Below, piece after piece: positions 6,195-32,288 of a DNA stretch of 64,000 bases (positions are counted from its first letter, which is position 1; every line of letters begins with the position of its first letter). The DNA comes from Spirochaetia bacterium (lineage in GTDB: Bacteria > Spirochaetota > Spirochaetia > SZUA-6 > Bin103). The notes below the pieces were generated by a model. That model worked only from the letters and a program-made list of their open reading frames with translations. It did not search any database and was not told the origin of the DNA. The stretch covers positions 3,904,001 to 3,968,000 of the forward strand of contig OZ241863.1 in NCBI GenBank assembly GCA_965203055.1. The letters run 5' to 3'. Position numbers and translations under genes: made by a program.

Positions 6195-6368
6195 CACTTC
6201 CTCCTTCACTTATTGCCGGGGCCTGTGTACGGGGCCTTTAGTCGGGCCAACGGCCCGGCAGAACCCTGCCCCCGCTATCCGATGGCGCAACAATGTACAC
6301 GCAATCGAATGTTGTCAACACTGTTGGCTGGCGGCGGCGCGCCGCCACTGCTGGCGGCCACGGACCGG

Positions 6369-6647
6369 CGCCCCGGTACCTTACTCGATGCCCACGCGCT
6401 CCGCAACGCGCACCCGAGCCCTGCGGGATACCGCCAGATCGCCTTCCCCGGGCGCCGGCGGCGCGCAGGACCTTAGCCCGCGGCGCGCGCCGCAGCGCAC
6501 TGCTGCCGGCGCCGAGACGGCTGAGGGTCACCTCACCCAAGAACGCCCACGGTAGCATCAGCCGGAGAGCTTGTCCAGTGCGCCGCCGGGCCGGCTTGCG
6601 CCAACCCTGCGTGCCCCGTGCATGCCGGCCCCGCGCCGGTACCGGGG
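6369..6647 (-). ncRNA. Candidate structured non-coding RNA (~275 nt), family unknown
   Basis: Promoter directly upstream; ends pair (CCCCGGUACC 6647-6638 / GGUACCGGGG 6380-6371); nested stems 6586-6576/6502-6492, 6491-6482/6414-6405, 6469-6420; GCAA-tetraloop hairpin 6607-6588; G-U pairs favour the minus strand. Confidence 0.45.
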
Positions 6648-6650
6648 GCG

Positions 6651-6679
6651 ACCATGGCCGATTCCCCTCTGCCTGTCAA
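6651..6679 (-). promoter_or_regulatory. sigma70-type promoter firing leftward into the structured region
   Basis: TTGACA (6679-6674), 17 nt, CATGGT (6656-6651). Confidence 0.55.
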
Positions 6680-7092
6680 GCCGCCGCCGCCCCTGCCGGG
6701 CAACCTGGCTTTCCCCTTACATCATCGGCCCCGGAGCGCCCCCCCGTTACCGCAACTTGCCCGCGCCCCACACCACCCCTGCGACCCTGCGCCAACACAC
6801 CACCCCTGCGCGCCCTGCACCAATCCCATCGACGAGCGCGTTAGCTGAGCAGCTACGCTGCGGCAGCAGGTACGGCGTCCGGCAAGCGGCCGCGCTCGCT
6901 CGCGGCCACCGCCGACGGCGCCCCCTGGTGCCCGATTGGGCTGACGCGCTCATCTTCGACTCCCCGCGCCGCCATGTAAAGCGCTGCCGACGCCGCGCCG
7001 TTGTAGGTCATCGATGGCGCCGCCGCTGCTCCGGCGCACGGCCACCTGTTCCGCGGCCACGTCCGGCACGCGCCGCCATCGACGGAGACCCC

Positions 7093-8067
7093 ATGAACGA
7101 CCCTTCGTACAAGCGCCTGCTCAACCACCGGCGCATCATCAAGGACCTGCTGCTCGGCTTCATCGCCCCGCTGCGCCCGCCCGGTTGGGCTGACTCGCTC
7201 GACTTCGACTCCCTGCGCGACGGCCCGACCGAGCAAATCACCGATGACCTGCGCCGGCGCTTCAGCGACGTCGTCTGGTCCATCGACCGGCGCGCCGCAG
7301 GCGATCGCGCGCAGACCGTGCAGGTAGTGATCGAGCACCAGTCATCGGTGGACCACTCGATGCCGCTGCGGTTCCTCAACTACAGCAGCCTGCACTACCA
7401 GCGGAAGTACCGCGACCACCAGTGGCGCAAGGGCGACACTGCCGACCTGGTGCTGCACGTCGTGCTGTACAACGGCAGCGCCCGCTGGAACGCCCCGCAG
7501 TCGCTGGCGGAGCTGGTGCCGAGGTGGGAACACGACGGTCCGGCGCAGCTCGCGCTGAGCTATGACGTGGTTGATCTGGTGGCGCTGGCAGCGGATGACC
7601 TGCCGCGCCCCAACCTGATAACCTGGATGGCGGACGTGGAGCGCAGCCGGCGCGCCGGCGAGCTGGCGGAGCGGGTGCGGGAGTTGGGACAGTGGCTCGC
7701 CGCAGAGGACGAGCCGGAACTGACGAAGAGTTTCGACCTGTGGCTCGGCGCCATGACCCGGAAGTGGGGCGTCAAGTTGCCGTCGATTCGCGACCACGAG
7801 GAGGCACGCGCAGTGTTCTTGGAGAAGATCGATCGCTGGGAAGCTGAGTTCCTGCAAGAGGGACGTCAGCAAGGCCGCCAGGAGGGCCGGTTGGAAGGCC
7901 GCCAGGAGGGCCGCCAGGAAGGCCGGTTGGAAACTATCGAAGGGTTCCTGCGAGCGGGCATCGGGTGGCCGGTGATCGAATCCGCCACCGGCATCGACGA
8001 GCACACCTACCGCACCCTCAAACACGACTCCGCCAACGGCATGGAGCCGGCCGCGCCGCCGCGTTAA
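7093..8067 (+). CDS. Rpn/YhgA-like recombination-promoting nuclease (PD-(D/E)XK; RpnL)
   Basis: GGAG RBS, NDPSYKRLL, LDFDSL, RFSDVVW, VIEHQSSVDHSMPLRFLNY, VVLYNG..W, C-terminal EGRQ repeats. Confidence 0.9.
   Translation: MNDPSYKRLLNHRRIIKDLLLGFIAPLRPPGWADSLDFDSLRDGPTEQITDDLRRRFSDVVWSIDRRAAGDRAQTVQVVIEHQSSVDHSMPLRFLNYSSLHYQRKYRDHQWRKGDTADLVLHVVLYNGSARWNAPQSLAELVPRWEHDGPAQLALSYDVVDLVALAADDLPRPNLITWMADVERSRRAGELAERVRELGQWLAAEDEPELTKSFDLWLGAMTRKWGVKLPSIRDHEEARAVFLEKIDRWEAEFLQEGRQQGRQEGRLEGRQEGRQEGRLETIEGFLRAGIGWPVIESATGIDEHTYRTLKHDSANGMEPAAPPR
7813..8067 (+). CDS. Putative in-frame internal small protein (RpnS-like, 84 aa)
   Basis: GAGGAGG at 7798-7804, 8 nt before in-frame GTG 7813, just before the EGRQ-repeat domain. 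Confidence 0.6.
   Translation: MFLEKIDRWEAEFLQEGRQQGRQEGRLEGRQEGRQEGRLETIEGFLRAGIGWPVIESATGIDEHTYRTLKHDSANGMEPAAPPR
7858..7929 (+). repeat. 12-bp tandem coding repeats (EGRQ/QGRQ/EGRL, 6 units)
   Basis: Six imperfect 12-nt units; the second copy (10258-10305) has four. Confidence 0.8.
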
Positions 8068-8069
8068 CT

Positions 8070-8233
8070 TCCTGCTGTCTGGGCACGTCTACCGCGAGCG
8101 CGGCCGCCCCCGTGCTGGCAACCTCGACCGCGCCCCAGACCGGCGCGCGTTCCCGCCGCCGCCCGCGCAGAATGATGTCGGTAGCGATGACCCGGTGCTC
8201 CTGCGCCGCAATGATACGGCCCTCGTCGGCGGC
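8070..8233 (-). pseudogene. Start-less fragment of a PD-(D/E)XK-like domain gene
   Basis: Reads AADEGRIIAAQEHRVIATDIILRGRRRERAPVWGAVEVAST; D...E spacing like restriction-fold domains. Confidence 0.35.
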
Positions 8234-8291
8234 TTGGCGGCCAAGCCCAAGTCCCAGTCCCAGTGTAGATGACGTTTCTCGGAGATCTTGA

Positions 8292-9656
8292 TCACCGGTC
8301 TACCGGCGCCTGACCATCCTCGCCGGGGCGCCCGAATCCGGCGCCGGCGTGGCGGTAGCGGTGATGGGCGGCGCACAGCAGCCGGAGATTGTTCGGCTCG
8401 GCGGCGCCGCCGCAGGCATACGGCACGACGTGATCGATCTGCAGCAGGTGTTGGGAGCCGCAGCGGCGCCCGCTGGTGCGGTCCACGTAGCGGCAGCGGC
8501 CCCCGTCGCGCCGCCAGACCTCGCGCTTGACCGCCGCCGGGATGGCGCGGCCGGTCGCGCCGCCGGCCTTCGCTGCCGAAGTCTCGGTCCGCGCCGGCGG
8601 CGCAGCCCGCGCCACGCACGCCACCGCAGCCGGCCGGCCGAGGCGCCGCGTCTTCGGCGCCGAAGCTGCGTCGCCCGCCGGCTTCGCTGCCGAAGTGTCC
8701 GAGCGGTCAGCGGCTGCGTCTCCCGGCTGCGCCGGCGCCTGAGCCGATACCTTCGCCGCCGAAGGAGCGGCGCGGTCCGCGCTGGCCTCCTGCTTCGCTG
8801 CCGGGGCAGCGCCGCGAGCCGAGGCTGCCTGCGTCTTCGCCGCCGAAGTCTGCTCGGCGCCTTTGGCCGGCGCGGCGCGCCGCCCGCGCGGCGGCCGGGC
8901 CGGGTCGTGACGGTCGAGCCCTTCCCGCACCAGCCGCCCCATGAGCTGCCCCATCGTCAGGTGCGGATCGACGTGGGACAGGAGGCCCTTGAGCCGCTCC
9001 AAGCCGCGCCGGCACTCATCGTCGATCACCGCCTTGAGCTCCCAGCGCCCGCCGCCCAGCGGCCGCACCCGATCCGCCGGCGCCGCCAGCTCCGGGTCCA
9101 CCTCGGCCAGCAACTGCATCACCTGCCGGCTGCTCTTGCCGGACGCCTGCTCCACCAGCTCCCGCCGCGCCTCCGGGTCCAGCACCGGCGCCGGCGCCGG
9201 CTTCCGCTCCGCCGGCCGCGGCGGCGCCGAGCCGTTCTGCGACTGGGCGGCAGCCCCGCACCCGACACCGCCCGGCGCGCTACGCGCCGCCCGTTCCTTC
9301 TTGCGCTCCTGACGGTCGAAGGCATGCTGCAACTGCGCGGCCGCGTTCAGCGTCATCGTGCCATTCTGCAGGCGTTCGCGCACGCCCTCGACGTCCGCGC
9401 AGAGCCGCATCGCCTTGATGCGCCGCCACGCTGCGGCGTCGCTGTAACCCAGTTCGCGCACCGCGTAGTCGAACAGGCTGGAGAACCCGCGGCGCAGATA
9501 CAGGCGCCGCTTCTGAATCTCGCGCAGGTGGTCGATGACGACCACTTCGAGATGGTGTTCGATGCCGGACAGTTCCTTGGTCCGCTCCAGCAGGCGGTCG
9601 TCTGAGAGGGCGGAAACGGTAGTGGTGACGGCCTCGTCGGAAGCCTGATCGTTCAT
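8292..9656 (-). CDS. DUF222-like / HNH endonuclease
   Basis: N-terminal LSDDRLL...HLREIQKRRLYLRRGFSSLFDY...LGYSDAAAWRRI; C-terminal IPAAVKREVWRRDGGRC...C...LQIDHVVP..GG....NLRLLCAAHH. Confidence 0.9.
   Translation of the reverse strand: MNDQASDEAVTTTVSALSDDRLLERTKELSGIEHHLEVVVIDHLREIQKRRLYLRRGFSSLFDYAVRELGYSDAAAWRRIKAMRLCADVEGVRERLQNGTMTLNAAAQLQHAFDRQERKKERAARSAPGGVGCGAAAQSQNGSAPPRPAERKPAPAPVLDPEARRELVEQASGKSSRQVMQLLAEVDPELAAPADRVRPLGGGRWELKAVIDDECRRGLERLKGLLSHVDPHLTMGQLMGRLVREGLDRHDPARPPRGRRAAPAKGAEQTSAAKTQAASARGAAPAAKQEASADRAAPSAAKVSAQAPAQPGDAAADRSDTSAAKPAGDAASAPKTRRLGRPAAVACVARAAPPARTETSAAKAGGATGRAIPAAVKREVWRRDGGRCRYVDRTSGRRCGSQHLLQIDHVVPYACGGAAEPNNLRLLCAAHHRYRHAGAGFGRPGEDGQAPVDR
8568..8848. 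repeat. Six copies of a 14-bp palindromic repeat CTTCG(C/G)(T/C)GCCGAAG inside the HNH linker
   Basis: Copies at 8568, 8652 (perfect palindrome), 8682, 8751, 8793 (degenerate) and 8835; they encode SAAK/SAPK/PAAK. Confidence 0.75.
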
Positions 9657-9662
9657 GACATA

Positions 9663-9693
9663 AGTATAATCATGGGAACTACTTGAGTCAAGT
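9663..9693 (-). promoter_or_regulatory. Near-consensus leaderless promoter of the HNH gene with a palindrome over the -35 box
   Basis: TTGACT (9691-9686), 17 nt, TATACT (9668-9663), 6 nt, ATG 9656; ACTTGA-G-TCAAGT at 9681-9693. Confidence 0.75.
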
Positions 9694-9733
9694 TATTCGG
9701 CCCGGAAGATGCCACCTGCGGGCGTGACTCGGC

Positions 9734-9956
9734 GGCGCATTTCCAAGCGGCTGGACGTTACTTCAGATGCTGCTGCCGAGAATGTCGCCGGCGTCGACAG
9801 GGCGCGATCTGCCGGGTACCGACGGGCCGGCTGCGGCGCCGGCGCGGGCGGCGTTGAGGGCGAGCACGCGGGCGAGCACTTCGTCGCGGACTCCGGCGCG
9901 GTCCTTTCAGCGGCTTCGAGGGCGGGATCGGTACCAACAAATTGGAAGTGCGTCCC
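9734..9956. mobile_element. Putative MITE derived from an ISKra4/ISLre2-like IS
   Basis: Imperfect terminal inverted repeats GGCGCATTTCCAA (9734-9746) and TTGGAAGTGCGTC (9942-9954); the right end shares TTGGAAGTGCG with the IS remnant end at 62386-62396. Confidence 0.55.
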
Positions 9957-9999
9957 GACCGGACCGGCCGTCGGGGTCGGCCGCGGGATCGCGCGCCCG

Positions 10000-10447
10000 C
10001 CGCGCCCGAACCTGATATAACCTGGATGGCGGACGTGGAGCGCAGCCGGCGCGCCGGGGAGCTGGCGGAGCGGGTGCGGGAGTTGGGACAGTGGCTCGCC
10101 GCAGAGGACGAGCCGGAACTGACGAAGAGTTTCGACCTGTGGCTCGGCGCCATGACCCGGAAGTGGGGCGTCAAGTTGCCGTCGATTCGCGACCACGAGG
10201 AGGCACGCGCAGTGTTCTTGGAGAAGATCGATCGCTGGGAAGCTGAGTTCCTGCAAGAAGGCCGTCAGCAGGGCCGCCAGCAGGGCCGCCAGGAAGGCCG
10301 GTTGGAAACTATCGAAGGGTTCCTGCGAGCGGGCATCGGGTGGCCGGTCATCGAATCCGCCACCGGCATCGACGAGCGCACCTACCGCACCCTCAAACAC
10401 GACGCCGCCAACGGCACGGAGCCGGCCGCGCCGCGTTAGCTTCCCGC
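10000..10447 (+). repeat. Near-identical direct copy of the 3' part of the rpn gene (~7603-8075)
   Basis: Direct comparison: differs by a TA insertion near 10017-10020, two fewer 12-bp units, a 3-bp deletion and a few SNPs. Confidence 0.92.
10212..10439 (+). CDS. Stand-alone RpnS-like small protein (75 aa; alternative ATG 10026)
   Basis: Retains GAGGAGG plus GTG and an intact C-terminal domain; nuclease domain absent. Confidence 0.55.
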   Translation: MFLEKIDRWEAEFLQEGRQQGRQQGRQEGRLETIEGFLRAGIGWPVIESATGIDERTYRTLKHDAANGTEPAAPR

Positions 10448-10566
10448 TGCCCGCCCCGCGCTACCATCCGGTCGCCGTCCCTGGGTCCCTTGGCCTTGTG
10501 TGCCTTGGTGTGCCTTGGCGCCGTTGTTGACCGGAGGCGAAGGGGGCCGCTACCATCGCCCCCCTA

Positions 10567-11736
10567 ATGGCGGCCGAATTCAGTCTTTCGATCTATCCTT
10601 GGGTCTACGTCAGCAAGTTCGACGGCGAGGCGTGGGAGCGGCAGTACGTCGAGAAGCGCCATCTGACCCCCGCCGAGGAGGAGGCGCTGCCGGAGGCGGA
10701 ACGCGAGCGGCTCTACCGCGAGCGCAACGAGTTCCCCGGCCTGCCGCTGGTCAACTACACCACCCAATACGCGATGGCCTGCTTCGAGGGCCTCAAGGCG
10801 TTCCCGCAGCCGGACGGCTCGCTCAAGCTGTTTCGCCCGCGCGAGAACGGGGTGCGCATGCAGCGCTCCATGGAGGGGCTGTACATGCCGGGCGTGCCGG
10901 CGGATCAGTTCGTGGCGGCCGCGCGCGGGGTGGTGGCGCGCAACCAGGCCATCGGCTTTGCGCCGGCCTACGATCCGGCCTGGGAGCGGGACGACTTCGC
11001 CGCCGGCCACTCGGTGTACGTGCGGCCCTTCTCCCTGGCCGAGGGCGGCATCGGCGTGAACCTGAGCCGCACGCCCTGGTTCATCGTGGTCACCACCCGC
11101 GTCGGCTCCTACTTCGCCGACGACGCGGCCTCGAGCGCGGTCACCACCAGCCGGGTGCGCGCCACGCCCGGCGGCACCGGCTGGATCAAGTGCAGCGCCA
11201 ACTACGTGGTCAGCGCGCTGGCCAAGCGCGAGGCGGAGGCGGCCGGGTTCATCGAGTGCGTGTTCCTGGACGCCGCACACCACCGCTACGTCGAGGAAGG
11301 CTCCTCCTGCAACCTGTTCTTCGTACTCGGCGGCGGCCGCCTGGTGACGCCGGCGCTCGGCGATACGGTGTTGCCCGGCATCACCCGCCGCACCATCATC
11401 GAGGTGGCGCAGGAAGAGGGAATGGCGGTCGAGGAACGCCCGGTGCCGATCGATGAGGTGCTCGATGACGCGGTCGAAGCGTTCGGCACCGGCACCGCGG
11501 CCGGGGTGACCTACTTCAGTTCACTGCGCCACGAAGGCACCGAGAAGGTATTCGGCGACGGCCGCATGGGGCCGGTGAGCCGCCGCTTCCTGCGCACCCT
11601 GAAGGGGGTGCAGTACGGCGCCCTGGAGGATCGCCATGGCTGGATGGTGCCGGTGACGGAGGGCGGCGCGGGCGCGGAAGCTGACGGCGCCGCCACTGCG
11701 GCGGCCGCGGTGAGCCTTGCCGGCGCCGCACGCTGA
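10567..11736 (+). CDS. ilvE: Branched-chain amino acid aminotransferase (PLP class IV)
   Basis: ACFEGLKAF, LFRP..N..R, IKCSANY, EEGSSCNLFF, LPGITR, GTGTAA; upstream TTGACC-18-TACCAT. Confidence 0.88.
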   Translation: MAAEFSLSIYPWVYVSKFDGEAWERQYVEKRHLTPAEEEALPEAERERLYRERNEFPGLPLVNYTTQYAMACFEGLKAFPQPDGSLKLFRPRENGVRMQRSMEGLYMPGVPADQFVAAARGVVARNQAIGFAPAYDPAWERDDFAAGHSVYVRPFSLAEGGIGVNLSRTPWFIVVTTRVGSYFADDAASSAVTTSRVRATPGGTGWIKCSANYVVSALAKREAEAAGFIECVFLDAAHHRYVEEGSSCNLFFVLGGGRLVTPALGDTVLPGITRRTIIEVAQEEGMAVEERPVPIDEVLDDAVEAFGTGTAAGVTYFSSLRHEGTEKVFGDGRMGPVSRRFLRTLKGVQYGALEDRHGWMVPVTEGGAGAEADGAATAAAAVSLAGAAR

Positions 11737-12124: not shown

Positions 12125-13874
12125 GCGCGTTGCTGCGCATCCCGGTAGTGGCGGCCAGCGCCGCGGCCAGACGCCGGTGCAGGGCGCGCCAGCGCGCGCC
12201 GTCGGCCGCCACCGCGGCCACGAGGCGCGCGTGCTGCGGATGGCGCGCGCGCAGGCGCCCCGCCCACAGGGCCAGCAGATTGGCCACGGCGGCAGCCTCC
12301 TGCTGCAGCAGGTAGGCCTGGAATTCATTGACCACCAGCCATTCGTAGTCGGTATCGTAGCCGACCGCGTCCAGCAGCAGATGCCAGTACTGCCGCTCGC
12401 CGGGGGTCAGCTCCTGCCACAGCGCGCGGGCCGCTTCCTGATAGGGGAGGTGGATGAAGTAGAGTCCGTGCAGCGCTTCGTGGCGCAGCAGCAGGCGGCG
12501 CAGCTCGCGCCCGGAGCCTTGCGATATCGACAGCACGGCGCCGGCGCCGGCGCGCCAGCCGGCGGCCGCCGGGTCGGGCTCGATGATGCCGTGGGTCACC
12601 GCCACCGCGCGCAGCAGCAGCTCCTCGCCGGTCAGGGTCAGGCCGGCCGCCTGCGCCGCGGTGAAGAACCGCGCCAGGTCGGGAGCGGCGTAGTCGTGGG
12701 CGTTGTAGCCGCGCAGTCCGCCCAGCTCGCGGTCGCTGAGCAGCCGCCCGCGGTAGCCGCGCTTTTCGACGTAGAACGCGAGCCGGCGGAAGAAACGCGC
12801 CTGGGTGGCGTAATCCGCGGTATCGAACACCAGCAGCGGGGCGTCCCGGTTTTGGCGCGCGCCGTTCCAGGCATAGAGCTCGAACTCCGGGCGCCGCCAC
12901 CGCGCCGGGGGCAGGCGCAAGGTGGTGCTGAGATCGGCCGGCAACGCCACCAGGTCCGCGCCCGGCTGCGCGGCCGGCAGCGCCTCCACCGCGGCGGTTG
13001 CCAGACCGGTGTGCGGCCCCCCCTCCTCCACCTGCTGCAACCGCAGGCGCTGCGGCCGAAAGCCGATCTCGCCGCCGTGCAGATGGATCAACTGGCGGCC
13101 CGGGCGCAGGGTGACCAGCCAGGCGCGGCGCGCGGCGCCCGCTTCCAGGACCACGCGCAGCTCGCGGTAGTCGGCGGCGGCGGCGTTCCGCAGACCGATG
13201 ACCAGCAGCCACTGCAGGGCGCCGGGGCCGCCGTCCCCGGCGCCCTGCTCCGGGTAGTGCCAGGGGGCCAGCTCCAGGTCCACCGGCCACAACGCGGCGC
13301 CGTCGAAGCGGGCGCCGGCGCGCGCGGCGAAGCCGCTGCCGGCGAGCAGCGTCCCGTCCCGCGCCAGCAGCGGCCCGCCGCGCCGCGTCACCGCGGCCGC
13401 GCGCAACTCCAGGCGCCCGCCGGCCGCGGCCGCCGGCGCGCGCAGTTGCAGGCCCCCCAGCTCCAGCGGCTGCTCGATGGCCAGCCGATAGCGCAGTTGG
13501 CCGCGCCCGCCGATCCGTACCTGCTCGCTGCGCGCCACGCGGTCGGCGGCGTCGTACAGCTCGACGGTGAAGGTCTCCAGCTCGCTGGTCAGGTCCAGCG
13601 CCAGCGCTTCGCCCGGGCGCAGCGGCACCGGCGCGGCCAGCTCGAAGCGCGCCGTGGCCAGGATGCCGTGCTGCGGCGCGATCGCGGCGCCGGCCACCTG
13701 CGCGGCGCGCGCGGCCGCGGCCTCGGCGCCGGAGCGGCGCACGGCGCGCAGCGCGACCGGCTCCCCCGCCGCAGTGGTGAACGGCACCTCGTCCGCGCCG
13801 GCCAGCCCGCAGGCGGCGGCCGCGGCGGCCAGCGCCGCCGCCGCGGCCGCGCGCAGCAGGGAGCGCAGCCGCAT
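12099..13874 (-). CDS. Putative lipoprotein with C-terminal HExxH motif
   Basis: MRLRSLLRAAAAAALAAAAAAC lipobox-like start overlapping the upstream stop; RRLAFYVEKRGYRG, YNAHDY, HEALH, NEFQAY. Confidence 0.65.
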   Translation of the reverse strand: MRLRSLLRAAAAAALAAAAAACGLAGADEVPFTTAAGEPVALRAVRRSGAEAAAARAAQVAGAAIAPQHGILATARFELAAPVPLRPGEALALDLTSELETFTVELYDAADRVARSEQVRIGGRGQLRYRLAIEQPLELGGLQLRAPAAAAGGRLELRAAAVTRRGGPLLARDGTLLAGSGFAARAGARFDGAALWPVDLELAPWHYPEQGAGDGGPGALQWLLVIGLRNAAAADYRELRVVLEAGAARRAWLVTLRPGRQLIHLHGGEIGFRPQRLRLQQVEEGGPHTGLATAAVEALPAAQPGADLVALPADLSTTLRLPPARWRRPEFELYAWNGARQNRDAPLLVFDTADYATQARFFRRLAFYVEKRGYRGRLLSDRELGGLRGYNAHDYAAPDLARFFTAAQAAGLTLTGEELLLRAVAVTHGIIEPDPAAAGWRAGAGAVLSISQGSGRELRRLLLRHEALHGLYFIHLPYQEAARALWQELTPGERQYWHLLLDAVGYDTDYEWLVVNEFQAYLLQQEAAAVANLLALWAGRLRARHPQHARLVAAVAADGARWRALHRRLAAALAATTGMRSNALTLLRAAD

Positions 13875-14431
13875 CAGCGCAACTCCGGCAGGCGCCGCGC
13901 CGCCTCCGCCTGCAGCACAGCGCGAACCTGCGCCGCGGCCAGCGGATAGCCGGCCGCGGCCAGCGTGGTGCAGAACTCGCGGTGACCGCGCCCGCGCCGG
14001 TAGTCGGGCGCGCGCGGCGGAAAGGGCAGGAAGCGCTCGAACTCGGCGGGATCGTTGTTCACCAGCAGGCTCGCCTGGTAGAACAGCGCCCGGCGGCGGC
14101 GGAACACGCTGCTGCCGGCAATCTTGCGGTCGCCGATCGCCAGGTCCGAGATGCCGCGCTGCTCCACCCCCTGCACGCCGCAGCGGCGCAGGGCGGCAAT
14201 GAACCACTCGTTGATGGCGCGCGCATAGGCGCGGTTGCGGTAGGGATGGTCCACCTCGGTCACCAGCGCCACCACTACCTGGCCGGGGGTGAGCAGCACG
14301 GTGCCGCCGCCGCCGCGGCGGCGCCGGATCGGCACCCCCGCGGCGCGCGCCGCGGCCTCATCCACCTCGGCCGCGGCGGCGCCGGCCGCGCCCAACACCA
14401 CTACCCGCCGGCGCGGCTCGTAGACCCGCAA
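13874..14431 (-). CDS. Lipoate-protein ligase A family catalytic domain (true start may be slightly upstream)
   Basis: IRRRRGGGGTVLL.PG, SDLAIGDRKIAGSS, YQASLL. Confidence 0.8.
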   Translation of the reverse strand: MRVYEPRRRVVVLGAAGAAAAEVDEAAARAAGVPIRRRRGGGGTVLLTPGQVVVALVTEVDHPYRNRAYARAINEWFIAALRRCGVQGVEQRGISDLAIGDRKIAGSSVFRRRRALFYQASLLVNNDPAEFERFLPFPPRAPDYRRGRGHREFCTTLAAAGYPLAAAQVRAVLQAEAARRLPELR

Positions 14432-14510
14432 CTGCGGCTGCCGGGACGACTCCCAGGCGGCCAGCAGGTCATCGTTCTCGAGCCGGCCGGCGCCCTCCGC
14501 GCCGGCCGGC

Positions 14511-15734
14511 TCAGGCGCCGTAGCGCGCCACCTTGCCGGCGTGGCCCAGGGCGATCGGCAGCAGCGCCCGTCCCGGAACCACGCCCCAGGAGCCGCCGGC
14601 GCAGGCGCGTTCGCCGAACGCGCGCACCGCGTCGGGGCGCGCGCCCGCGGCGTGGATCAGGAACGGCACCGGGTGGGCGGTGTGCGCCCGCGCGGCGCTG
14701 GGCGTGGAGTGGTCGCCGGTGACGATGACCACGTCGGGTCCCGGCGCGAGCAGCTCCGGCAGGAACGCGTCCACCCGCTCGATTTCCGCCACCTTGGCGT
14801 CGAAGTCGCCATCCTCGCCGGTGGAGTCGGTGTACTTGTGATGGACGAAGAAGTAGTCGTGGTCCGGCCAGGCCGCGGCCAGCGCGCGCGCCTGCGCCGG
14901 CAGATCGGCGAGGCCGTCGATCACCGCCATCCCTACGAGGCGGCTCACTCCCTTGTAGTCGGGGTACACCGCCAGGGCCACCGGGCGCAGGCCGAAGCGC
15001 TCCCCCAGACCCGGTATCTCAGGCAGTTGCGCGAAGCCGCGCAGCAGCACCTCGTTGGCCGGCGCCGCGTCCGCCAGCAGCTCGCGGGCGCGCGCCGCGA
15101 AGGCCGCGATCAGCGCCGCGGTGCGCTCCCCGCCGGGAGCGGTCGCGCGCGGCTCCCGCGCCGGTACGCCGGTGACCTGCGGGTCGGTGTCGGCCACTGC
15201 GGCGCTGAGGCCGGCGCCGCGCAACACCACCACGGCGCGGTAGTCGCGCACCGGCCGTACCGCCAGCTCCACGCCGGGCAGCTCGATGGCGTCCAGCCGC
15301 GCCGCCAGCTCGGCGCAGCGCGCGGTAGCGATGCGCCCGGCGCGCCGGTCGGTCACCGCGCCGGCGGCGTCGCGGGTAGCGAAGTTCAAGCGCACCGCGA
15401 GGTCGCCGCCGCGCACCGGAAAGCCGATGCCGAGCGCGGCGACGATGCCGCGCCCGATCGGGTAGCGCAGCGGATCGTAGCCGAACAGGGCCAGGTGCCC
15501 GGGCGCCGAACCGGGGGCGATGCCGTAGTCGACCGGGAGCTGCAGGCCGCACTCCGCGGCGCTCGCCAGGGCGTCGAGGTTCGGCGTACGCGCCGCCTCC
15601 AGCTCGGTGGGTCCGCCGGGGGCGCGCGGCAGACCGCCCAAGCCATCCATCACCAACAACAGGATGCGCCGGTCGTTGCGCACCTGCAGGGCGGCGAGCG
15701 GGTCGCCGGCGGGACCGTGAGTAGCGTGTTGCAT
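14511..15734 (-). CDS. apgM: 2,3-bisphosphoglycerate-independent phosphoglycerate mutase (ApgM type)
   Basis: LLVMDGLG, TELEAARTPNLD, PGSAPGHLALFGYDP, TDSTGEDGD, TGDHSTP. Confidence 0.88.
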   Translation of the reverse strand: MQHATHGPAGDPLAALQVRNDRRILLLVMDGLGGLPRAPGGPTELEAARTPNLDALASAAECGLQLPVDYGIAPGSAPGHLALFGYDPLRYPIGRGIVAALGIGFPVRGGDLAVRLNFATRDAAGAVTDRRAGRIATARCAELAARLDAIELPGVELAVRPVRDYRAVVVLRGAGLSAAVADTDPQVTGVPAREPRATAPGGERTAALIAAFAARARELLADAAPANEVLLRGFAQLPEIPGLGERFGLRPVALAVYPDYKGVSRLVGMAVIDGLADLPAQARALAAAWPDHDYFFVHHKYTDSTGEDGDFDAKVAEIERVDAFLPELLAPGPDVVIVTGDHSTPSAARAHTAHPVPFLIHAAGARPDAVRAFGERACAGGSWGVVPGRALLPIALGHAGKVARYGA

Positions 15735-16539: not shown

Positions 16540-17418
16540 GTGGCGATCGGCGGCAACGGTCAACGGCAACGGTTCGTGGCGCTCACCGGCGCCGGGCGCG
16601 GCATCGGCGCCGCCACTGCGCGCGCGTTGCGCGCCGCCGGCTACACGGTGGTGGCGGGCGTCCGCCAGCCGCCCGCCGGCGCCGCCGCGGGGCGCCGCGG
16701 GGCGGCGCCGGGCGGGGTGCGCTACCTGCCCCTCGACCTGACCGACGGCGGCTCCATCGAGCGGTTCGCCGCGGCCACCGCGGAGCTGGCCTCCGGCTCC
16801 CTGCTGGCGGCCATCAACAACGCCGGGGTGGGCGCGCTCGGCCCCGCGGAACAGTTTCCGGCAGCGCGCGCGCGGCAGGTGTTCGAGGTCAACCTGTGGG
16901 GGGCGGTGCAGCTCACCCAGCGCCTGCTGCCGTTGCTGCGCGCCCATGCCGCGCGCGCGGCGCCCGCCTATCTGCTCAACGTCGGCTCCCTGATCGCCGA
17001 GTACCCGGTGCCCTACCACGCGCTGTACGCCGCCTCCAAGGGAGCGCTGCGCGCCTACAGCCTGGCGTTGCGCGGCGAGCTGACCCGGCAGGGCGTGGCG
17101 GTGGTCCTGCTGGAGCCGGGCGACGTCGCCACCGGCAGCGCGCCGCTGCGCGGCGCCGCCGCAGCCGAGGCGTACCGCGCCGGCTACGCCCGGGTGGAGG
17201 CGGCCCGGGCGCGCAAGATGGCGGCCGCGCCGGCGCCGGAGGTGGTGGCGCGGCGGGTGGTGCGGGTGCTGGGCGCGCGCCGCCCGCCGCCGATCGTGGC
17301 ATGCGGGCGCGGCGCCGCGGGGCTGCGCTTCCTGCGGCGCCTGCTGCCGGACCGGCTCGCCGAAGCGCTCACGCTGCGCGCCTACGGCCTGCACCGGGGC
17401 GCCGGCAGCGGGCCCTGA
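16540..17418 (+). CDS. SDR family oxidoreductase
   Basis: TGAGRGIG, NNAG, YAASK. Confidence 0.88.
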   Translation: MAIGGNGQRQRFVALTGAGRGIGAATARALRAAGYTVVAGVRQPPAGAAAGRRGAAPGGVRYLPLDLTDGGSIERFAAATAELASGSLLAAINNAGVGALGPAEQFPAARARQVFEVNLWGAVQLTQRLLPLLRAHAARAAPAYLLNVGSLIAEYPVPYHALYAASKGALRAYSLALRGELTRQGVAVVLLEPGDVATGSAPLRGAAAAEAYRAGYARVEAARARKMAAAPAPEVVARRVVRVLGARRPPPIVACGRGAAGLRFLRRLLPDRLAEALTLRAYGLHRGAGSGP

Positions 17419-17446
17419 GCGGCGCGCGCGGCGCCGCCGGCGAGCG

Positions 17447-18661
17447 TTACAGGTAGCGCTGCTCGACGGCATCGAGTTGGCGCGGGCGCAATGACACGGC
17501 TTCCGGGTCGCGCCCGAAGCACACGCCGAGCGCCTCGTAGAACGCCACCGTCTCCGGCGCGACGTGACACTGCTCGATGGCGGCCGCGGTCGCCAGATAG
17601 CGCACTTCGCCGCGGTCGCCGCCGGCGGCCGTCACCCCCGAGATGCCGGCCGCCAGTAGGGCGACTGCGCCGGCGCCGATCTGCTTGCCGAAGTTCACGT
17701 CGTAGGCGGTCGAGCCGCCGGAGCGCACCAGGTGGCTGGGGGTCAACTCGCGCACCTCGGGAGTCTCGTAGATGCCGGCCACGAACTGGCCGGTGGCGCG
17801 CATGTAGGCGCCGGTATCGGGGTCGGCCGCGATGCGCTGCTCCAGCCCGGCACGCACGTACCTGCCGGCCCCGGCCAGCTTGCCGTGGCCGAAGGCGTCC
17901 ACCCCCGCGCCGGCGTCGGTCATCACCGCCCCGCCGGCGTCGCGCAGCCCCTCGGCCACCACGATGGTGTAGGTGCCGGCGTACACGTCGCTGCCGCGCA
18001 CGCGCCGGAACAGGCGCTCCTTGGCATGGCGGTAGACCACCTCCAGATCGGCCGGCACCTCCGGCAGCAGGATGCAGTCGGCATCCGCCGCCACCCCGCC
18101 GCGCAGCGCGGTGTGGCCGGCGTAGCGGCCGAACACCTCGGTGATCATGATGCGATTGTGGGTGGCGCCGGTGGTCTTGGCGTCCTGCACCAGGCGCGCG
18201 ATCCGGTTGACCGCCGAATCGCCGCCCACCGAGTAGGTTTGCAGGTCGAGGTCCATGGTCTTCGGCGCGTGCACGCAGCGAATCCCCTGCGCCACCAGGT
18301 CCACCACCACGCTGCCGGTATCGTCGCCGCCGGAGATCACCAGCGCGTCGAGCGCGTGGCGCTCCAGGCCGCGCTTGATGCGTTCGTACTTGCCGGGATC
18401 GTCGATCTTCGAAATCTTGACCCGGGAATGGCCGGCCTCGGAGCCGGCGCGGGTGGAATCAATGCGGTCGGCCCGCTCCCGGTCCAGCCGCACCAGGCGC
18501 GCCAGATCGACCAGGTTGTAGAGGCCGGCGTAGCCGTTCGGAATGACGTACGCGCCGATTCCCAGGTGCTCGCACATTCCGGCCATGCCGCGGATGACGC
18601 CGTTCAATCCGCCCGCATCACCGCCGCTGGTGATGATGCCGACGTTGCGGAGCTCTGCCAT
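17447..18661 (-). CDS. pfp: 6-phosphofructokinase family, PPi-dependent signature
   Basis: TSGGDAGGLN, SGGDDT, PKTMD, EVFGRYAG; leaderless promoter TTGACA-18-CAAGGT-6-ATG. Confidence 0.8.
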   Translation of the reverse strand: MAELRNVGIITSGGDAGGLNGVIRGMAGMCEHLGIGAYVIPNGYAGLYNLVDLARLVRLDRERADRIDSTRAGSEAGHSRVKISKIDDPGKYERIKRGLERHALDALVISGGDDTGSVVVDLVAQGIRCVHAPKTMDLDLQTYSVGGDSAVNRIARLVQDAKTTGATHNRIMITEVFGRYAGHTALRGGVAADADCILLPEVPADLEVVYRHAKERLFRRVRGSDVYAGTYTIVVAEGLRDAGGAVMTDAGAGVDAFGHGKLAGAGRYVRAGLEQRIAADPDTGAYMRATGQFVAGIYETPEVRELTPSHLVRSGGSTAYDVNFGKQIGAGAVALLAAGISGVTAAGGDRGEVRYLATAAAIEQCHVAPETVAFYEALGVCFGRDPEAVSLRPRQLDAVEQRYL

Positions 18662-29055: not shown

Positions 29056-32000
29056 ATGTCGCTTGAAGAGCGGGCGAAGGAGTGGCCGGCGCAGTGGCTG
29101 CGGGAAGGCCGCGCGCAGGATACGCGGTTGATCGAGCGGTGGCTGCCGATCGCGGCGCTTGGGATCGAGAGTATCCGCGAGCGGACGCCGATGACCCCGT
29201 TCCCGGCGCCGAACCGGTTGCACGTGTGGTGGGCGCGGCGGCCGTTGGTGGCGTCGCGGGCGGCGGTGCTGGCGTCGCTGCTGCCGGCGGACGCGGACCG
29301 GGATAGGTTTCTGCATGTGCTCGGCATCCACGGCGACCCGGTGGCCACGCGCCGCCGGATCGACGCCGCCAAGAGATCGGGGAACCGATTCAAGGGGCAG
29401 GCTTACAGCTATCCGCGCGCGTTTGGTTACGCGCCGGGGCAAACGGATCAGGAGTGGTTGCGTACCGCTCTCGAGACGCCGCTGAGTGAGTGCAACATCC
29501 TCGATCCTGCGGCAGGAGGCGGCAGCATCCCCTTCGAGACGATACGGCTCGGAGCGGCGGCTATCGCCAACGATCTCAATCCGGTGTCGGCGCTGATAAT
29601 GGATGCTTCGGTGAAGTGGCCTTCCTCATTCGGCTCGGATCTCCACCGCGAGTTCGATGACCTGTCGAAGCGGTTCATTGCGGCGAGAGAAGATCGCCTT
29701 GCCCCGTACTTCCCCAAGGAGGAAGGAACCAGGCCAAGACCGGATGATGTCGTCAATGCCATAGCCACCAACTTTCTGTGGGCGCGGACGGTGAGTTGTC
29801 CGTATTGCGGGGGGCGGGTGCCGCTGGCGCCGAACTGGCGGTTGGCGCCGGACGGGACGGGGGTGCGGCTGGAACCGCAGCCCGGCGGTGATTCAAGTAA
29901 TCCGAGTGCGCCGGGTGAGGCGCCGGGAGCGCCGGGGCGGGTGTGCCGGTTCGAGGTGGTGCATTCGGCGCGGGAGCAGGCGGCGGGGACGGTGGCACGC
30001 GGGGCGGGCAGCTGCCCGTGGCCGGATTGCGGGCGGGTGATCTCGGGCGACGAGATCAAGGCGCAGGCGCAGGCCGGAGCGATGGGCGAGCAACTGTTCG
30101 CGGTGGTCTACAAGGAACGGGTGAACACGTATACCAAGACCGGCCGCCGGCGCGAGAAGTGGGTGCGCCGCTACCGCGCGCCGCGCCCGGAAGACGACAA
30201 CGCCGCCGAGATAGCGGCGCGGCTGGCGGAGAAGCTGCCGGAGTGGGAGGCGTTCGACCTGGTGCCAAGCGAGCGGTTCTCGGAGGAGAGCAACGACGAT
30301 CGCCCGATCCAGTACGGCATGCCGCGCTGGCGGGACCTGTTCTCCCCGCGGCAGCTCCTGTGCCACGGCACCGGCGTAGAGGTGTTCCGCGAGTTGCTGG
30401 AAGCCGACCGCGCCGCCGGCGCGCTGACCCCGCTGCGCCAGGCCGCCTACGGCTTCCTGGCCCTCTCGCTCGACAAGACCCGTGACTACAACTCCCGCAT
30501 GACTCGCTGGCACGTAGGGCGCGAAGTAATGGTCAATACCTTCGACCGGCACGACTTCTCCTTCAAGTGGTCCTACGCCGAGATGGCGCCGCTGATCACC
30601 GGCCTGGGCTACGACTGGGCCATCCGCCAGACCGCCAAGTGCATCCGGGAACTGGTCGCCCTGGTGCGTCCCGGCGCCGGCGGCTCCGGTGCTCTAGGAG
30701 ATCTGTTCCCTGAGTCGGGCGCGCGGCCCGCCGTCACCATCACCTGCAAGCCGGGCGACAACCTCGACCATATCCCCGACGGCAGCGTCGACGCCGTGGT
30801 CATGGACCCGCCCTACTACGACAACGTGATGTACGCCGAGCTGTCCGACTTCTTCTACGTCTGGCTCAAGCGCACCGCCGGCCACGTCTTTCCCGCGCTG
30901 TTCCGCCGCCGCCTCACCGACAAGGAGAACGAGGCGGTCGCCAATCCCGCCCGGTTCCGCGGCCAGCCGGGCGCGCAGGCGCTCGCCGGGCGCGACTACC
31001 AGGAGCGGATGGCGAGCATCTTCGCCGAGATGCGCCGCGTGCTGAAATCCGACGGGGTGATGACGCTGATGTTCACCCACAAGGCGGCCGGCGCCTGGGA
31101 CGCGCTGACCACCGGGCTGATGGAGGCCGGCTTCGCGATCACCGCGTCATGGCCGATCAACACCGAGGCGGAGGGCAGCCTGCACGTGCGCAACAAGGCG
31201 GCTGCCAACAGCACCATCTTCCTGGCCTGCCGCCCGCGCACCGCGGCGCGCGAAGCGGACGAGACCCCGTACTACTGGGAAGACATCGAGCCTCGGGTAG
31301 CGGGCGCGGTGCGCGCCCGGGTGGCGGAGTATCAGGCGGCCGGCATCCGCGGGGTCGATCTCTACCTGGCCTGCTTCGGTCCTGCCCTGGAAGAATTCTC
31401 GCGCCACTGGCCGCTGGCGCGCGGCACGCCGCGCCCGGCGCCGCAGGAACGGCGGCGGGGCCGACGGCAGCCGGAGTTGGAGGCGGAGCGGGACCCCTAC
31501 GCGGTGAGCCCGGAAGACGTGCTGGACACCGCCCGGCGGGAGGTGAAGCGCTGGCGGCTGGAGCAGTTGACGCAGCGGCGGGCGGACGCCGACCTGGACC
31601 CTGCCACCGCCTTCTTCGTGCTGGCGTGGGACGCCTTCGAGGCGCCGGTGTTCGCCTACGACGAGGCGCTGCGGCTGGCGCGCGCGGTGGGCGTCGACCT
31701 GGAGCGGGAGGTGGTGGGCCGGCTGGCGGAGAAGCGCGGCAGCGACCTGCGGCTGTGGGACTCGACGCGGCGCGCCGCCGGCGGAGCGCTGGGGCCGCCC
31801 GACGGGGCGCGCGGCATGATCGACGCCGTGCACCACGCCGCCAACCTGGCGCGCACCCGCTCGCTCGACGATGCCCGCAAGCTGCTCGACGAGAAGCTGG
31901 GGACGCGCGAGGGGGCGTTCCTGACCGCGCTGGAAGCGGTGCTGGAAGTGCTGCCGGTCAGCAAGAGGTGGACCGGGATCGACCTGCCGGGAGAGGCGGC

Positions 32001-32109: not shown

Positions 32110-32288
32110 CCCTGCTCGCCGGAGACCGGTTCCTCCACGAAGAAGACCGCCGCACGCGGCGTCGGAGCCGGCCCTGCGGGCAGCTTGCCGACACGTTGGT
32201 TGGTGCTCCCGACAGCCCGGCACAGCCCGGCAGGGCGGCGGTAGCGGACTTGCCGCGCCCGGAGTATGGTTGGCGTGGAGGATCACCG

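What the first reader, a model, noticed from the sequence alone, without database searches (positions are those of the whole stretch)
7093..10447. Rpn gene-within-gene plus a second, diversified stand-alone RpnS copy flanking an HNH gene
Seen: full rpn with internal GAGGAGG-8nt-GTG; about 2.4 kb downstream, a near-identical copy of only its 3' ~450 bp keeps the RBS and ORF but has 4 instead of 6 EGRQ-type units. An HNH gene, a MITE and a nuclease remnant lie between the direct repeats. Established: Rpn proteins encode a toxic RpnL and an internally translated RpnS antitoxin and act in phage defence. Inference: the orphan copy is a spare or variant antitoxin, or a recombination donor. A crossover between the repeats would swap the RpnL tail and excise the HNH gene, giving a tail-switching mechanism.
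Basis: partly seen in the sequence, partly recalled or inferred. Interest (0 to 1): 0.75.

Follow-up and report, generated by a model that had tools for sequence, protein, structure and literature searches.

The report
Rpn defence gene with orphan antitoxin copy
A bacterial toxin-antitoxin defence gene (rpn) is followed by a cut-down second copy that keeps only its antitoxin part; this layout is already described in E. coli, and here a selfish nuclease gene sits between the two copies.

Summary
The core observation holds. rpn (7093-8067, Pfam PF04754) has an in-frame GAGGAGG-8 nt-GTG at 7798-7815. A direct repeat of its last ~480 bp lies at 9996-10449. That copy keeps the ribosome-binding site, the GTG and an open frame, with 4 instead of 6 four-residue units. 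An HNH gene (8292-9656, minus strand) lies between the repeats. The "MITE" was not found. The "nuclease remnant" is only a lead.

The layout is not new in kind. Zhong et al. 2023 (PMC10400941) describe nested RpnS antitoxins, repeat-number specificity, stand-alone downstream copies (rpnSs, such as ypaA), and their loss by fusion to the rpn 5' part. In E. coli K-12, ypaA also differs from rpnE by one unit.

New here:
- The lineage is a high-GC Spirochaetia.
- The duplicate carries 215 nt upstream of the internal start.
- The HNH gene belongs to a high-copy family, with 12 of the best 120 hits on the source chromosome.
- A related genome has the same sandwich with a Uma2 nuclease gene instead.
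- The post-repeat tail occurs on different Rpn backbones, joined at the repeats.

Whether the orphan is expressed or selected stays open. By the published rule, a 4-unit RpnS should not neutralise the resident 6-unit RpnL. Verdict: new member of a known kind, moderate interest.

The parts
7093..8067 (+). rpn gene (RpnL, 324 aa): N-terminal YhgA-like PD-(D/E)XK nuclease domain plus C-terminal tail
   Evidence: PF04754 E=1.3e-18, residues 26-206. TIGR01784 'Rpn family' scores 42.7 bits, below its cutoff of 52.1. D59, E81, H82, Q83 and S84 are invariant in 44 homologs.
7798..7815 (+). internal Shine-Dalgarno GAGGAGG, 8-nt spacer and GTG start of the nested RpnS
   Evidence: Read directly. The same GAGGAGG-N8-ATG/GTG is present in 11 of 11 copies in the window and loci L001-L005. 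The residue is V (62) or M (23) in the 85 of 120 homologs with the motif.
7813..8067 (+). nested RpnS frame (84 aa), predicted antitoxin
   Evidence: AlphaFold model, mean pLDDT 64. Its C-terminal helices superpose on E. coli RpnA-S 7th0 (TM 0.71 by target, rmsd 1.3 A, 38 columns, 32% identity) but with E=1.5.
7858..7929 (+). six 12-nt (four-residue) units: EGRQ QGRQ EGRL EGRQ EGRQ EGRL
   Evidence: Unit number ranges from 1 to 12 among close homologs.
7599..8077 (+). direct repeat copy 1 (3' part of rpn plus about 10 nt past the stop)
8292..9656 (-). HNH endonuclease gene (454 aa), member of a high-copy family
   Evidence: PF01844 E=2.5e-6. 1877 relatives at E<=1e-5. 12 of the best 120 are on the same 4,557,819-bp contig as the window's own copy, at 84-92% identity apart from that copy itself.
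9663..9691 (-). promoter-like site TTGACT-17-TATACT upstream of the HNH gene
   Evidence: 10 of 12 matches. It is one of 2 sites found in 6700-10700; shuffles give a mean of 0.2.
9657..9906 (-). 5' flank shared with other HNH copies; possible 3' remnant of another gene (MmeI_C-like, lead only)
   Evidence: P0131 reads through the same flank as far as 9872, 84% identical over 107 residues. Frame read. Atlas score 0.94. Pfam finds nothing.
9996..10449 (+). direct repeat copy 2: 5'-truncated rpn copy (orphan, rpnSs-like)
   Evidence: tblastn maps it to Rpn residues 167-318. The 137-aa frame from ATG 10026 is an annotated protein of the source genome (P0248).
10197..10439 (+). orphan Shine-Dalgarno (10197-10203), GTG 10212 and 75-aa RpnS frame with four units (10257-10304)
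6930..6969 (+). short remnant of an rpn 5' end (codons ~30-42) upstream of the intact gene
   Evidence: 88% identical to 7179-7218, blastn E=2e-7. It also matches the rpn 5' ends in L001-L003.

Best explanation
This is an Rpn toxin-antitoxin defence gene of the gene-within-gene type, followed by a 5'-truncated copy of itself that keeps only the antitoxin module.

The parts:
- The long product (RpnL, 324 aa) is a PD-(D/E)XK nuclease.
- A short product (RpnS, 84 aa) would start at GTG 7813 and bind the identical tail of RpnL.
- The downstream copy (9996-10449) matches the rpnSs genes of E. coli (ypaA type). It keeps 215 nt of pre-start sequence, the ribosome-binding site, the GTG and a 75-aa frame, with 4 units instead of 6.

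Likely history (inferred): a partial or tandem duplication of rpn, as in the rpn arrays of related genomes. Then a copy of a high-copy HNH gene was inserted between the two copies, or it truncated the second copy.

Likely present state (inferred): the orphan makes a stand-alone RpnS. By the published repeat-number rule this RpnS does not match the resident 6-unit RpnL. It therefore acts as an alternative-specificity antitoxin, not a spare. It also remains a substrate for an occasional crossover. Such a crossover would give a matched 4-unit RpnL/RpnS pair and delete 2.4 kb including the HNH gene.

Shown: the anatomy, family membership, conservation of the internal start, recurrence of such orphans, and mosaic tails. 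Inferred: expression, binding, toxicity and defence.
For: Family and anatomy:
-.
- The internal start is conserved.
- Units begin at RpnS residue 16, within the published 8-20 range (passage read).
- The tail resembles RpnA-S 7th0.

Published precedent (PMC10400941, passages read):
- Separate rpnSs genes lie downstream of rpnE and rpnC, each derived from its own upstream gene.
- E. coli K-12 ypaA lies 12 nt after rpnE, is 83.5% identical over 176 nt, and differs by one unit.

Recurrence in relatives:
- L003 has rpnA, a Uma2 gene, an orphan starting at Rpn residue ~177, then rpnB, with 11, 10 and 12 units.
- L005 is a lone copy starting at residue 124.
- The four adjacent pairs of copies in the window, L001 and L003 all differ in unit number.

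Strain variants of this orphan carry 4, 5 or 6 units and share tail residues R304 and T317 (three of the four) and the short ...APR end (all four): P0249, P0247, P0246, P0256.

Constraint in L003, my three-way partition of the numbers:
- Orphan-specific nonsynonymous changes are 3 in the 186 nt before the internal start and 0 in the RpnS frame.
- The chance of that split is about 0.057.

HNH is a high-copy family with its own promoter-like site.
Against: - No promoter-like site was found inside rpn or upstream of the orphan.
- In the window, the orphan versus rpn RpnS frames show 4 synonymous and 4 nonsynonymous differences. pN/pS is 0.31 and P=0.096, so this is not distinguishable from neutral.
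- The copy is young (~97% identical), so an open frame proves little. Both indels are slippage-type and in frame by their nature.
- The strain variants come from predicted-protein sets, which list only open frames. That is an ascertainment bias.
- Tail-only and 5'-only rpn fragments also litter these loci: L001 4830-4928, L003 10001-10075, window 6930-6969. Decay is therefore common.
- PF14261 (DUF4351), the family the paper names for separate RpnS genes, does not match.
- The fold match to 7th0 has E=1.5.
- The repeat-number rule was shown only for E. coli RpnC.
Confidence: 0.55

Rival explanations
1. The orphan is a non-functional leftover. A second rpn copy of a tandem array lost its 5' two-thirds when the HNH segment arrived, and the rest is drifting. 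Its open frame and ribosome-binding site survive only because the event is recent.
For: - ~97% identity.
- pN/pS is not significantly below 1 in the window.
- No promoter-like site was found.
- rpn fragments of several kinds occur in the window and in L001, L003 and L005.
- The unit number is mismatched with the neighbouring RpnL.
- RefSeq annotates E. coli ypaA as a pseudogene.
Against: - Zhong et al. detected tagged YpaA protein (passage read).
- In L003, changes specific to the orphan fall before the internal start, not in the RpnS frame.
- Orphan alleles with 4, 5 and 6 units are all open, though the sample is biased towards open frames.
- 19 of 103 short relatives are predicted to start in the ten-residue bin (240-249) that holds the internal start.
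Confidence: 0.3
2. The orphan is kept as a recombination donor. It would be a stored alternative tail, like the orphan toxin-tip/immunity cassettes downstream of CDI and Rhs genes (comparison recalled, not tested). A crossover in the shared arm would switch RpnL and RpnS specificity in one step.
For: - Direct orientation, with a 215-nt arm carrying 1 difference upstream of the variable units.
- Because RpnS is nested, a crossover changes toxin and antitoxin together.
- Tails are mosaic. Window Rpn versus P0312 (same chromosome): 41 of 44 tail residues are identical, while the upstream part shares only about a fifth of its residues (my estimate from the alignment).
- Window versus L004 Rpn: 70% identical over residues 1-272, then unrelated.
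- DNA similarity to L004 and L005 ends at 7854 and 7886, at the units.
- 51 of 73 full-length homologs stop aligning before residue 300.
- The paper notes such fusions in E. coli.
Against: - The switch is a one-way deletion with a single stored tail.
- No recombined or excised junction could be looked for.
- In L003 the arm is no more conserved than the tail.
- Mosaic tails show past exchange, not a maintained mechanism.
Confidence: 0.12
3. The HNH gene caused or carries the duplication. Either a mobile HNH unit brings a copy of the rpn 3' end with it, or its cuts provoke repair that duplicates rpn sequence.
For: - The family is high-copy.
- An HNH relative lies within 3 kb of rpn in 2 of 6 rpn loci examined: the window and L004, where two HNH copies flank rpn.
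- A strain contig of 10,317 nt appears to hold both an orphan (P0247) and an HNH copy (P0220), judged only from the shared contig length.
Against: - In L003 the same sandwich holds a Uma2 gene, not HNH.
- The 4 loci of genome OZ241907.1 have no HNH within 10 kb, although that genome has HNH copies.
- E. coli rpnSs copies arise without any such gene.
- The HNH flanks share nothing with rpn.
- The ends of the HNH unit could not be defined.
Confidence: 0.05
4. The repeat is an assembly artefact.
For: Repeats of ~480 bp can be mis-joined in metagenome assemblies.
Against: - The two copies differ at about ten substitutions and three indels.
- Both copies have their own predicted proteins on the 4.56-Mb source contig (P0241 and P0248).
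- Independent strain contigs carry orphan-type proteins.
- L003 shows the same layout in another genome.
Confidence: 0.02

Closest known systems
E. coli rpnE-ypaA (rpnESs) and rpnC-rpnCSs: stand-alone RpnS copies downstream of rpn (Zhong et al. 2023, PMC10400941; abstract and passages read)
   Same: - Same strand, downstream of a full rpn, and derived from that gene's own 3' end.
- Keeps the ribosome-binding site, start codon and RpnS frame.
- Differs from the parent in the number of four-residue units. ypaA has one extra unit, KLEG.
- Can be lost by fusion with the rpn 5' part.
   Different: - In K-12 the copy starts ~11 nt before its ATG and lies 12 nt after the rpnE stop, at 83.5% identity.
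- Here the copy starts 215 nt before the internal start and lies 1.9 kb away, with an opposite-strand HNH gene between, at ~97% identity.
- The tail here is not matched by PF14261.
- The host is a high-GC Spirochaetia.
Tandem rpn arrays (Zhong et al. 2023; passage read)
   Same: Related genomes show head-to-tail rpn units with a ~146-nt spacer and truncated members: L001 10001-12147, and L003.
   Different: The window has one full copy plus fragments, not an array of full genes. Foreign nuclease genes (HNH, Uma2) sit inside the arrays.
Orphan toxin-tip/immunity modules downstream of cdiA and rhs genes (recalled from the literature; no paper read here)
   Same: A displaced 3' module sits downstream in direct orientation, sharing a homologous arm with the main gene, so that recombination can swap the specificity-bearing end.
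   Different: - Here the immunity function is nested inside the toxin gene itself.
- Only one stored module is present.
- No secretion system is involved, and no exchange has been observed.
EcoR124I/EcoR124II TAEL repeat change (cited within Zhong et al., passage read)
   Same: Specificity is set by the number of four-residue repeats in a helix.
   Different: That case concerns DNA-sequence specificity of a restriction enzyme, not toxin-antitoxin pairing.

Membership tests
Rpn (recombination-promoting nuclease) gene-within-gene toxin-antitoxin | N-terminal YhgA-like PD-(D/E)XK nuclease domain | tested here: met
   PF04754 E=1.3e-18, 67.8 bits against a cutoff of 21. The SDVVW...IEHQS motif is invariant in 44 homologs and is also present in E. 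coli RpnE. The fold search of the full model gave only weak restriction-endonuclease-like hits (best MspJI, E=0.019; none at E<=0.001).
Rpn (recombination-promoting nuclease) gene-within-gene toxin-antitoxin | Reaches NCBIfam's curated score for TIGR01784 'Rpn family' | tested here: not met
   42.7 bits against a cutoff of 52.1, though the match spans residues 3-303.
Rpn (recombination-promoting nuclease) gene-within-gene toxin-antitoxin | In-frame internal ribosome-binding site and start codon giving a small C-terminal protein | tested here: met
   GAGGAGG-8 nt-GTG at 7798-7815, kept in 11 of 11 copies. Only V or M occurs at that residue in 85 of 120 homologs. Actual translation is not testable here.
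Rpn (recombination-promoting nuclease) gene-within-gene toxin-antitoxin | Four-residue repeats starting 8-20 residues after the RpnS start, varying in number among close relatives | tested here: met
   The first unit starts at RpnS residue 16. Close homologs have 1 to 12 units. Near-identical strain proteins have 5 units against 6 here.
Rpn (recombination-promoting nuclease) gene-within-gene toxin-antitoxin | RpnS folds as the helical bundle of E. coli RpnA-S (PDB 7th0) | tested here: inconclusive
   Rank 3 of the PDB search: TM 0.71 by target, rmsd 1.3 A, 38 columns, 32% identity, probability 0.60, but E=1.5. The model's mean pLDDT is 64. There is no PDB match by sequence.
Rpn (recombination-promoting nuclease) gene-within-gene toxin-antitoxin | RpnL is toxic, RpnS neutralises it, and the pair protects against phage | not testable with these tools
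   Needs expression and phage assays.
rpnSs (separate downstream RpnS gene) | Small copy downstream of rpn that is closest to its own upstream gene | tested here: met
   ~97% identical to 7599-8077, against 78-87% identity to the copies in L001-L005.
rpnSs (separate downstream RpnS gene) | Matches DUF4351 (PF14261), the family named in the paper for separate RpnS genes in some species | tested here: not met
   No PF14261 hit at E<=0.1 for the orphan frame or the 84-aa RpnS.
rpnSs (separate downstream RpnS gene) | The small protein is made | not testable with these tools
   No promoter-like site was found by the consensus scan. No expression data are available.
   No such inverted repeats in 8060-8300 or 9650-10000. 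No other copy in the 64-kb window or in 101 kb of related loci. The rest of the source genome could not be searched.
Mobile or homing HNH endonuclease gene | HNH catalytic motif, with many near-identical copies in one genome | tested here: inconclusive
   PF01844 at residues 398-436. 12 of the best 120 relatives are on the source contig. The element's ends and any empty sites were not seen. Only the HNH motif matches plasmids or phages.

The most novel reading that the evidence does not exclude
Rpn tails may behave as exchangeable cassettes. The dodecamer repeat tract would be the joint at which whole tail domains are swapped between rpn backbones. The 5'-truncated copies left beside rpn genes would be stored tails that recombination can re-attach. 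Because the antitoxin is nested in the tail, each swap would reset toxin and antitoxin specificity together. That would make rpn loci a polymorphic-toxin-like system with built-in immunity switching, in which selfish nuclease genes (HNH, Uma2) lodged between the repeats are removed by the same crossover.
Probability: 0.2. Interest if true: 0.6.

Novelty: new member of a known kind. Interest (0 to 1): 0.35.

Why it matters
The Rpn gene-within-gene system was described only in 2023, and the role of the separate downstream RpnS copies is still open. This locus and its relatives give natural material for that question:
- Adjacent copies always differ in unit number.
- Orphan alleles with 4, 5 and 6 units exist among strains.
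- The same tail occurs on different backbones.

Together these make testable the idea that repeat number insulates paralogs and that tails are exchanged at the repeat tract. The locus does not reveal a new kind of system.

Tried and rejected
- MITE. There are no inverted repeats, no second copy of the flanks and no Rfam family.
- DUF4351/PF14261 for the tail: no hit.
- PADLOC gave only a weak 'putative invertase' hit to the repeat region (E=2.5e-4), which I treated as repeat-driven.
- PDB by sequence: nothing.
- The full-length fold search gave no match at E<=0.001.
- The apparent extension of orphan homology to 9930 is alignment run-on, not homology.
- Uma2 remnant between the repeats: none. 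The only Uma2 match in the window is at 32274-32909.
- HNH relatives on plasmids or phages match only the HNH motif, over 13-15% of the protein.
- MmeI_C for the HNH 5' flank: suggested by the Atlas but not confirmed by Pfam.
- Synteny: none of the five related loci shares the window's neighbours. rpn sits among unrelated housekeeping genes in each.
- A complex prediction was not run. The two RpnS forms are nearly identical, so a pass would not discriminate repeat-number matching.
- Supplements of Zhong et al.: only Dataset S2 could be searched, with no hits. The SI appendix PDF gave no text and Dataset S1 was too large. Their Figs S1B, S3 and S6 and Dataset S1 may already show spirochaete cases or intervening genes.
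- Literature searches found only Zhong et al. and its commentary on RpnS. I found no paper on an HNH or Uma2 gene between rpn and rpnSs in those searches.
Genome-wide counts therefore rest on protein tables.

Full report
WHAT IS THERE

The window is 70% G+C. The frame 7093..8067 (+) encodes a 324-aa protein that matches Pfam PF04754 (Transposase_31, YhgA-like). The match has E=1.3e-18 and 67.8 bits against a cutoff of 21, over residues 26-206. NCBIfam's 'Rpn family' model TIGR01784 aligns over residues 3-303 but scores 42.7 bits, below its cutoff of 52.1.

Inside the gene, GAGGAGG (7798-7804) is followed after 8 nt by an in-frame GTG (7813). This would give an 84-aa product. That product reads VFLEKIDRWEAEFLQ, then six four-residue units (EGRQ QGRQ EGRL EGRQ EGRQ EGRL), then a 45-residue tail.

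A direct repeat of 7599-8077 lies at 9996-10449:
- The ungapped blocks are 97% (284 nt) and 93% (181 nt) identical.
- blastn gives E=0, and it is the only long repeat in the window.
- The second copy has 2 extra nt at its 5' edge, lacks 24 nt (two units) and lacks 3 nt near the stop.
- It keeps GAGGAGG (10197-10203), GTG (10212) and an open 75-aa frame with four units.

Between the repeats lies a 454-aa gene on the minus strand (8292..9656). It has an HNH motif (PF01844, E=2.5e-6) and a promoter-like site TTGACT-17-TATACT at 9691 to 9663. A class IV aminotransferase gene follows at 10567. A 40-nt piece of an rpn 5' end lies upstream at 6930-6969.

WHAT WAS NOT FOUND

I found no MITE. There are no terminal inverted repeats in the two non-coding flanks. 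Those flanks do not recur in the window or in the related loci. There is no Rfam match.

The 'nuclease remnant' may be the minus-strand stretch 9766-9906, which reads a 47-residue C-terminal peptide. The same flank precedes another copy of the HNH gene (P0131 reads through it, 84% identical over 107 residues). The first 45 residues of P0131 resemble the MmeI C-terminal domain in the ESM Atlas (score 0.94; 28 of 30 hits). Pfam gives nothing, so this stays a lead.

WHAT IS ALREADY KNOWN

Zhong et al. 2023 (PMC10400941; abstract and passages read) show the following:
- rpn genes encode a toxic nuclease RpnL and, from an internal start, an antitoxin RpnS.
- The shared tail carries four-residue repeats that begin 8-20 residues after the RpnS start and vary among strains.
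- Only an RpnS with the same repeat number blocks RpnC.
- RpnS can also be a separate gene. ypaA (rpnESs) lies downstream of rpnE and rpnCSs lies downstream of rpnC, each derived from its own upstream gene.
- rpn arrays arise by tandem duplication.

The commentary (PMC10400984; passages read) adds that repeat variation should prevent inhibition in trans between copies.

I checked the E. coli K-12 case directly. ypaA starts 12 nt after the rpnE stop. It is 83.5% identical to the rpnE 3' end over 176 nt and has one more unit (KLEG) than RpnE. A downstream antitoxin-only copy with a different unit number is therefore a described kind of thing.

EVIDENCE THAT THE INTERNAL START IS REAL

In all 11 copies that I could read as DNA, GAGGAGG is followed after 8 nt by ATG (6 copies) or GTG (5 copies). 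These are the window (2 copies), L001 (3), L002, L003 (3), L004 and L005. Among the 120 best protein relatives, 85 carry the flanking motif. The residue at the start position is V in 62 and M in 23, and nothing else.

An AlphaFold model of the 84-aa product has a mean pLDDT of only 64. Its last three helices superpose on E. coli RpnA-S (7th0) with TM 0.71 by target, rmsd 1.3 A over 38 columns and 32% identity. The E-value is 1.5, so this supports the reading without being significant.

The full-length model (pLDDT 71.7) gave only weak hits to restriction-endonuclease-like nucleases and none at E<=0.001.

RELATIVES

Seven encode a relative, in five loci of two 'Spirochaetia bacterium' MAG chromosomes.
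- L001 has a tail-only remnant before one rpn gene, and a head-to-tail pair of rpn genes.
- L002 has a single rpn gene.
- L003 has a tail remnant, rpnA, a Uma2 (PF05685) gene, a 5'-truncated copy starting at Rpn residue ~177, then rpnB.
- L004 has an rpn gene flanked by two degenerate copies of the HNH gene.
- L005 has a lone copy starting at residue 124.

The 5' ends of the truncated copies differ, so no fixed site is involved. These ends are at about codon 171 in the window, codon 177 in L003 and codon 124 in L005.

Unit numbers by a uniform count are 6 and 4 in the window. In L003 they are 11, 10 and 12. In L001 they are 6, 7 and 11, and in L002 there are 8. The four adjacent pairs all differ in number.

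In each locus rpn sits among unrelated housekeeping genes, not in a defence island.

STRAIN VARIANTS

The window's Rpn and the 137-aa frame from ATG 10026 are both annotated proteins on a 4,557,819-bp contig (P0241, P0248).

Members of the same 90% cluster and close hits include:
- Full-length proteins with 5 units (P0001, P0243, P0244).
- Orphan-type proteins with 4 units (P0249), 5 units (P0247, P0256) and 6 units (P0246). All four have the short ...APR end of this orphan. Three of them (not P0249) also share its R304 and T317.
- P0098, which joins sequence like window 6709-6768 directly to Rpn residue 155 onwards.

On the source contig there are further short relatives: P0253, P0255, P0312, P0340 and P0347. 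Of the 103 short relatives I mapped, 63 keep the start motif. Nineteen are predicted to begin in the ten-residue bin (240-249) that holds the internal start. These sets list only open frames, so they cannot show that broken alleles are rare.

SELECTION

In the window, the RpnS frames of rpn and the orphan differ by 4 synonymous and 4 nonsynonymous changes. pN/pS is 0.31 and P=0.096. The 186 nt before the start differ by one synonymous change.

In L003, the orphan's RpnS frame against rpnA gives 4 synonymous and 1 nonsynonymous change (ratio 0.08, P=0.014). Against rpnB it gives 4 and 2 (ratio 0.16, P=0.03). I partitioned the three pairwise counts onto branches (my arithmetic). The orphan's own branch carries 3 nonsynonymous changes in the part before the start and none in the RpnS frame. 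The chance of that split is about 0.057. This is what an expressed RpnS-only gene would show, but the numbers are small.

TAILS ARE MODULAR

- Window Rpn and P0312, from the same chromosome, share 41 of 44 tail residues but only about a fifth of the residues upstream (my estimate from the alignment).
- Window Rpn and the L004 Rpn are 70% identical over residues 1-272 and unrelated after the units.
- DNA similarity to L004 and L005 ends at 7854 and 7886, where the units begin.
- Of 73 full-length relatives, 22 align through the tail and 51 stop before residue 300. Of those 51, 45 stop between residues 261 and 290.
- A search with the 45-residue tail alone found 41 cluster representatives at E<=0.001. 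Of these, 35 are shorter than 220 aa.
- Two hits carry two such modules in tandem, one of them ahead of a P-loop-like region.

THE HNH GENE

It has 1877 relatives at E<=1e-5. Twelve of the best 120 lie on the source contig, at 84-92% identity apart from the window's own copy, and several more lie on each of three other large contigs. It is therefore a high-copy, probably selfish gene, not a partner of Rpn. Only its HNH motif matches plasmids or phages. An HNH relative lies within 3 kb of rpn in 2 of 6 loci examined. That seems more than chance for about a dozen copies in 4.6 Mb, but the sample is tiny and the element's ends are unknown.

HOW IT MOST LIKELY WORKS

Shown: the anatomy, the family, the conserved internal start, the recurrence of antitoxin-only copies, and the mosaic tails.

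Inferred:
- rpn makes RpnL and RpnS.
- The orphan arose by partial or tandem duplication, and the HNH segment was inserted between the copies or truncated the second copy.
- The orphan makes a 4-unit RpnS that, by the published rule, does not neutralise the 6-unit RpnL.
- A crossover in the 215-nt arm would give a matched 4-unit pair and delete the HNH gene.

I put 0.55 on a maintained rpnSs-type gene, 0.30 on a drifting remnant and 0.12 on selection as a recombination donor. I give little weight to an HNH-driven origin or an artefact.

VERDICT

The 'spare antitoxin' idea conflicts with the repeat-number rule. This is a new member of a known kind, with useful comparative detail.

Noticed in passing
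window 8292-9656 (minus strand): The HNH gene belongs to a lineage-restricted, high-copy family. 12 of the best 120 relatives lie on the same 4.56-Mb contig, and several lie on each of three other large contigs. The N-terminal half looks DUF222-like from recall, but Pfam does not call it.
   Followed up: partly
window 9766-9906 (minus strand): A 47-residue C-terminal peptide upstream of the HNH gene, shared with another HNH copy (P0131). The ESM Atlas suggests an MmeI_C-like remnant, but Pfam finds nothing.
   Followed up: partly
window 29056-32909: A DUF1156 protein (1017 aa, PF06634) is followed by a Uma2 nuclease homolog (32274-32909, PF05685). That homolog is 56% identical to the Uma2 gene lying between rpnA and the orphan in L003.
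   Followed up: no
L003 10001-14121: The same sandwich in another genome: rpnA, a Uma2 gene, a 5'-truncated rpn copy, then rpnB, with 11, 10 and 12 units. An ISL3 transposase gene lies at 16770-18017.
   Followed up: yes
L004 7557-15001: An rpn gene with a different tail type is flanked by two degenerate HNH copies, one with an internal deletion and one frameshifted. 90-nt inverted copies lie at 13627-13716 and 14914-15001. A small membrane protein with four QQGV repeats lies at 14089-14472.
   Followed up: partly
P0098 (protein from a 7,754-nt contig): A related strain appears to join sequence like window 6709-6768 directly to Rpn residue 155 onwards, with 2 units and a 10-residue deletion. 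The main rpn copy there has lost its nuclease half.
   Followed up: partly
P0242 and P0245 (cluster of the window's Rpn): In some strain contigs the rpn gene is predicted as two pieces: a 144-aa piece aligning to residues 1-145, and a 166-aa piece from about residue 159 to the end. This is either a frameshifted RpnL that keeps RpnS, or an assembly error.
   Followed up: no
P0352, P0355, P0364 (hits of the tail search): These proteins carry two RpnS-like modules (repeats plus tail) in tandem. In P0355 the modules precede a long region with a P-loop-like motif.
   Followed up: no
window 6210-7092: About 880 nt between the outer-membrane-protein-like gene and rpn contain no convincing gene. They hold the 40-nt rpn 5' remnant and ~127 nt of upstream sequence shared with rpn paralogs in L001.
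   Followed up: partly
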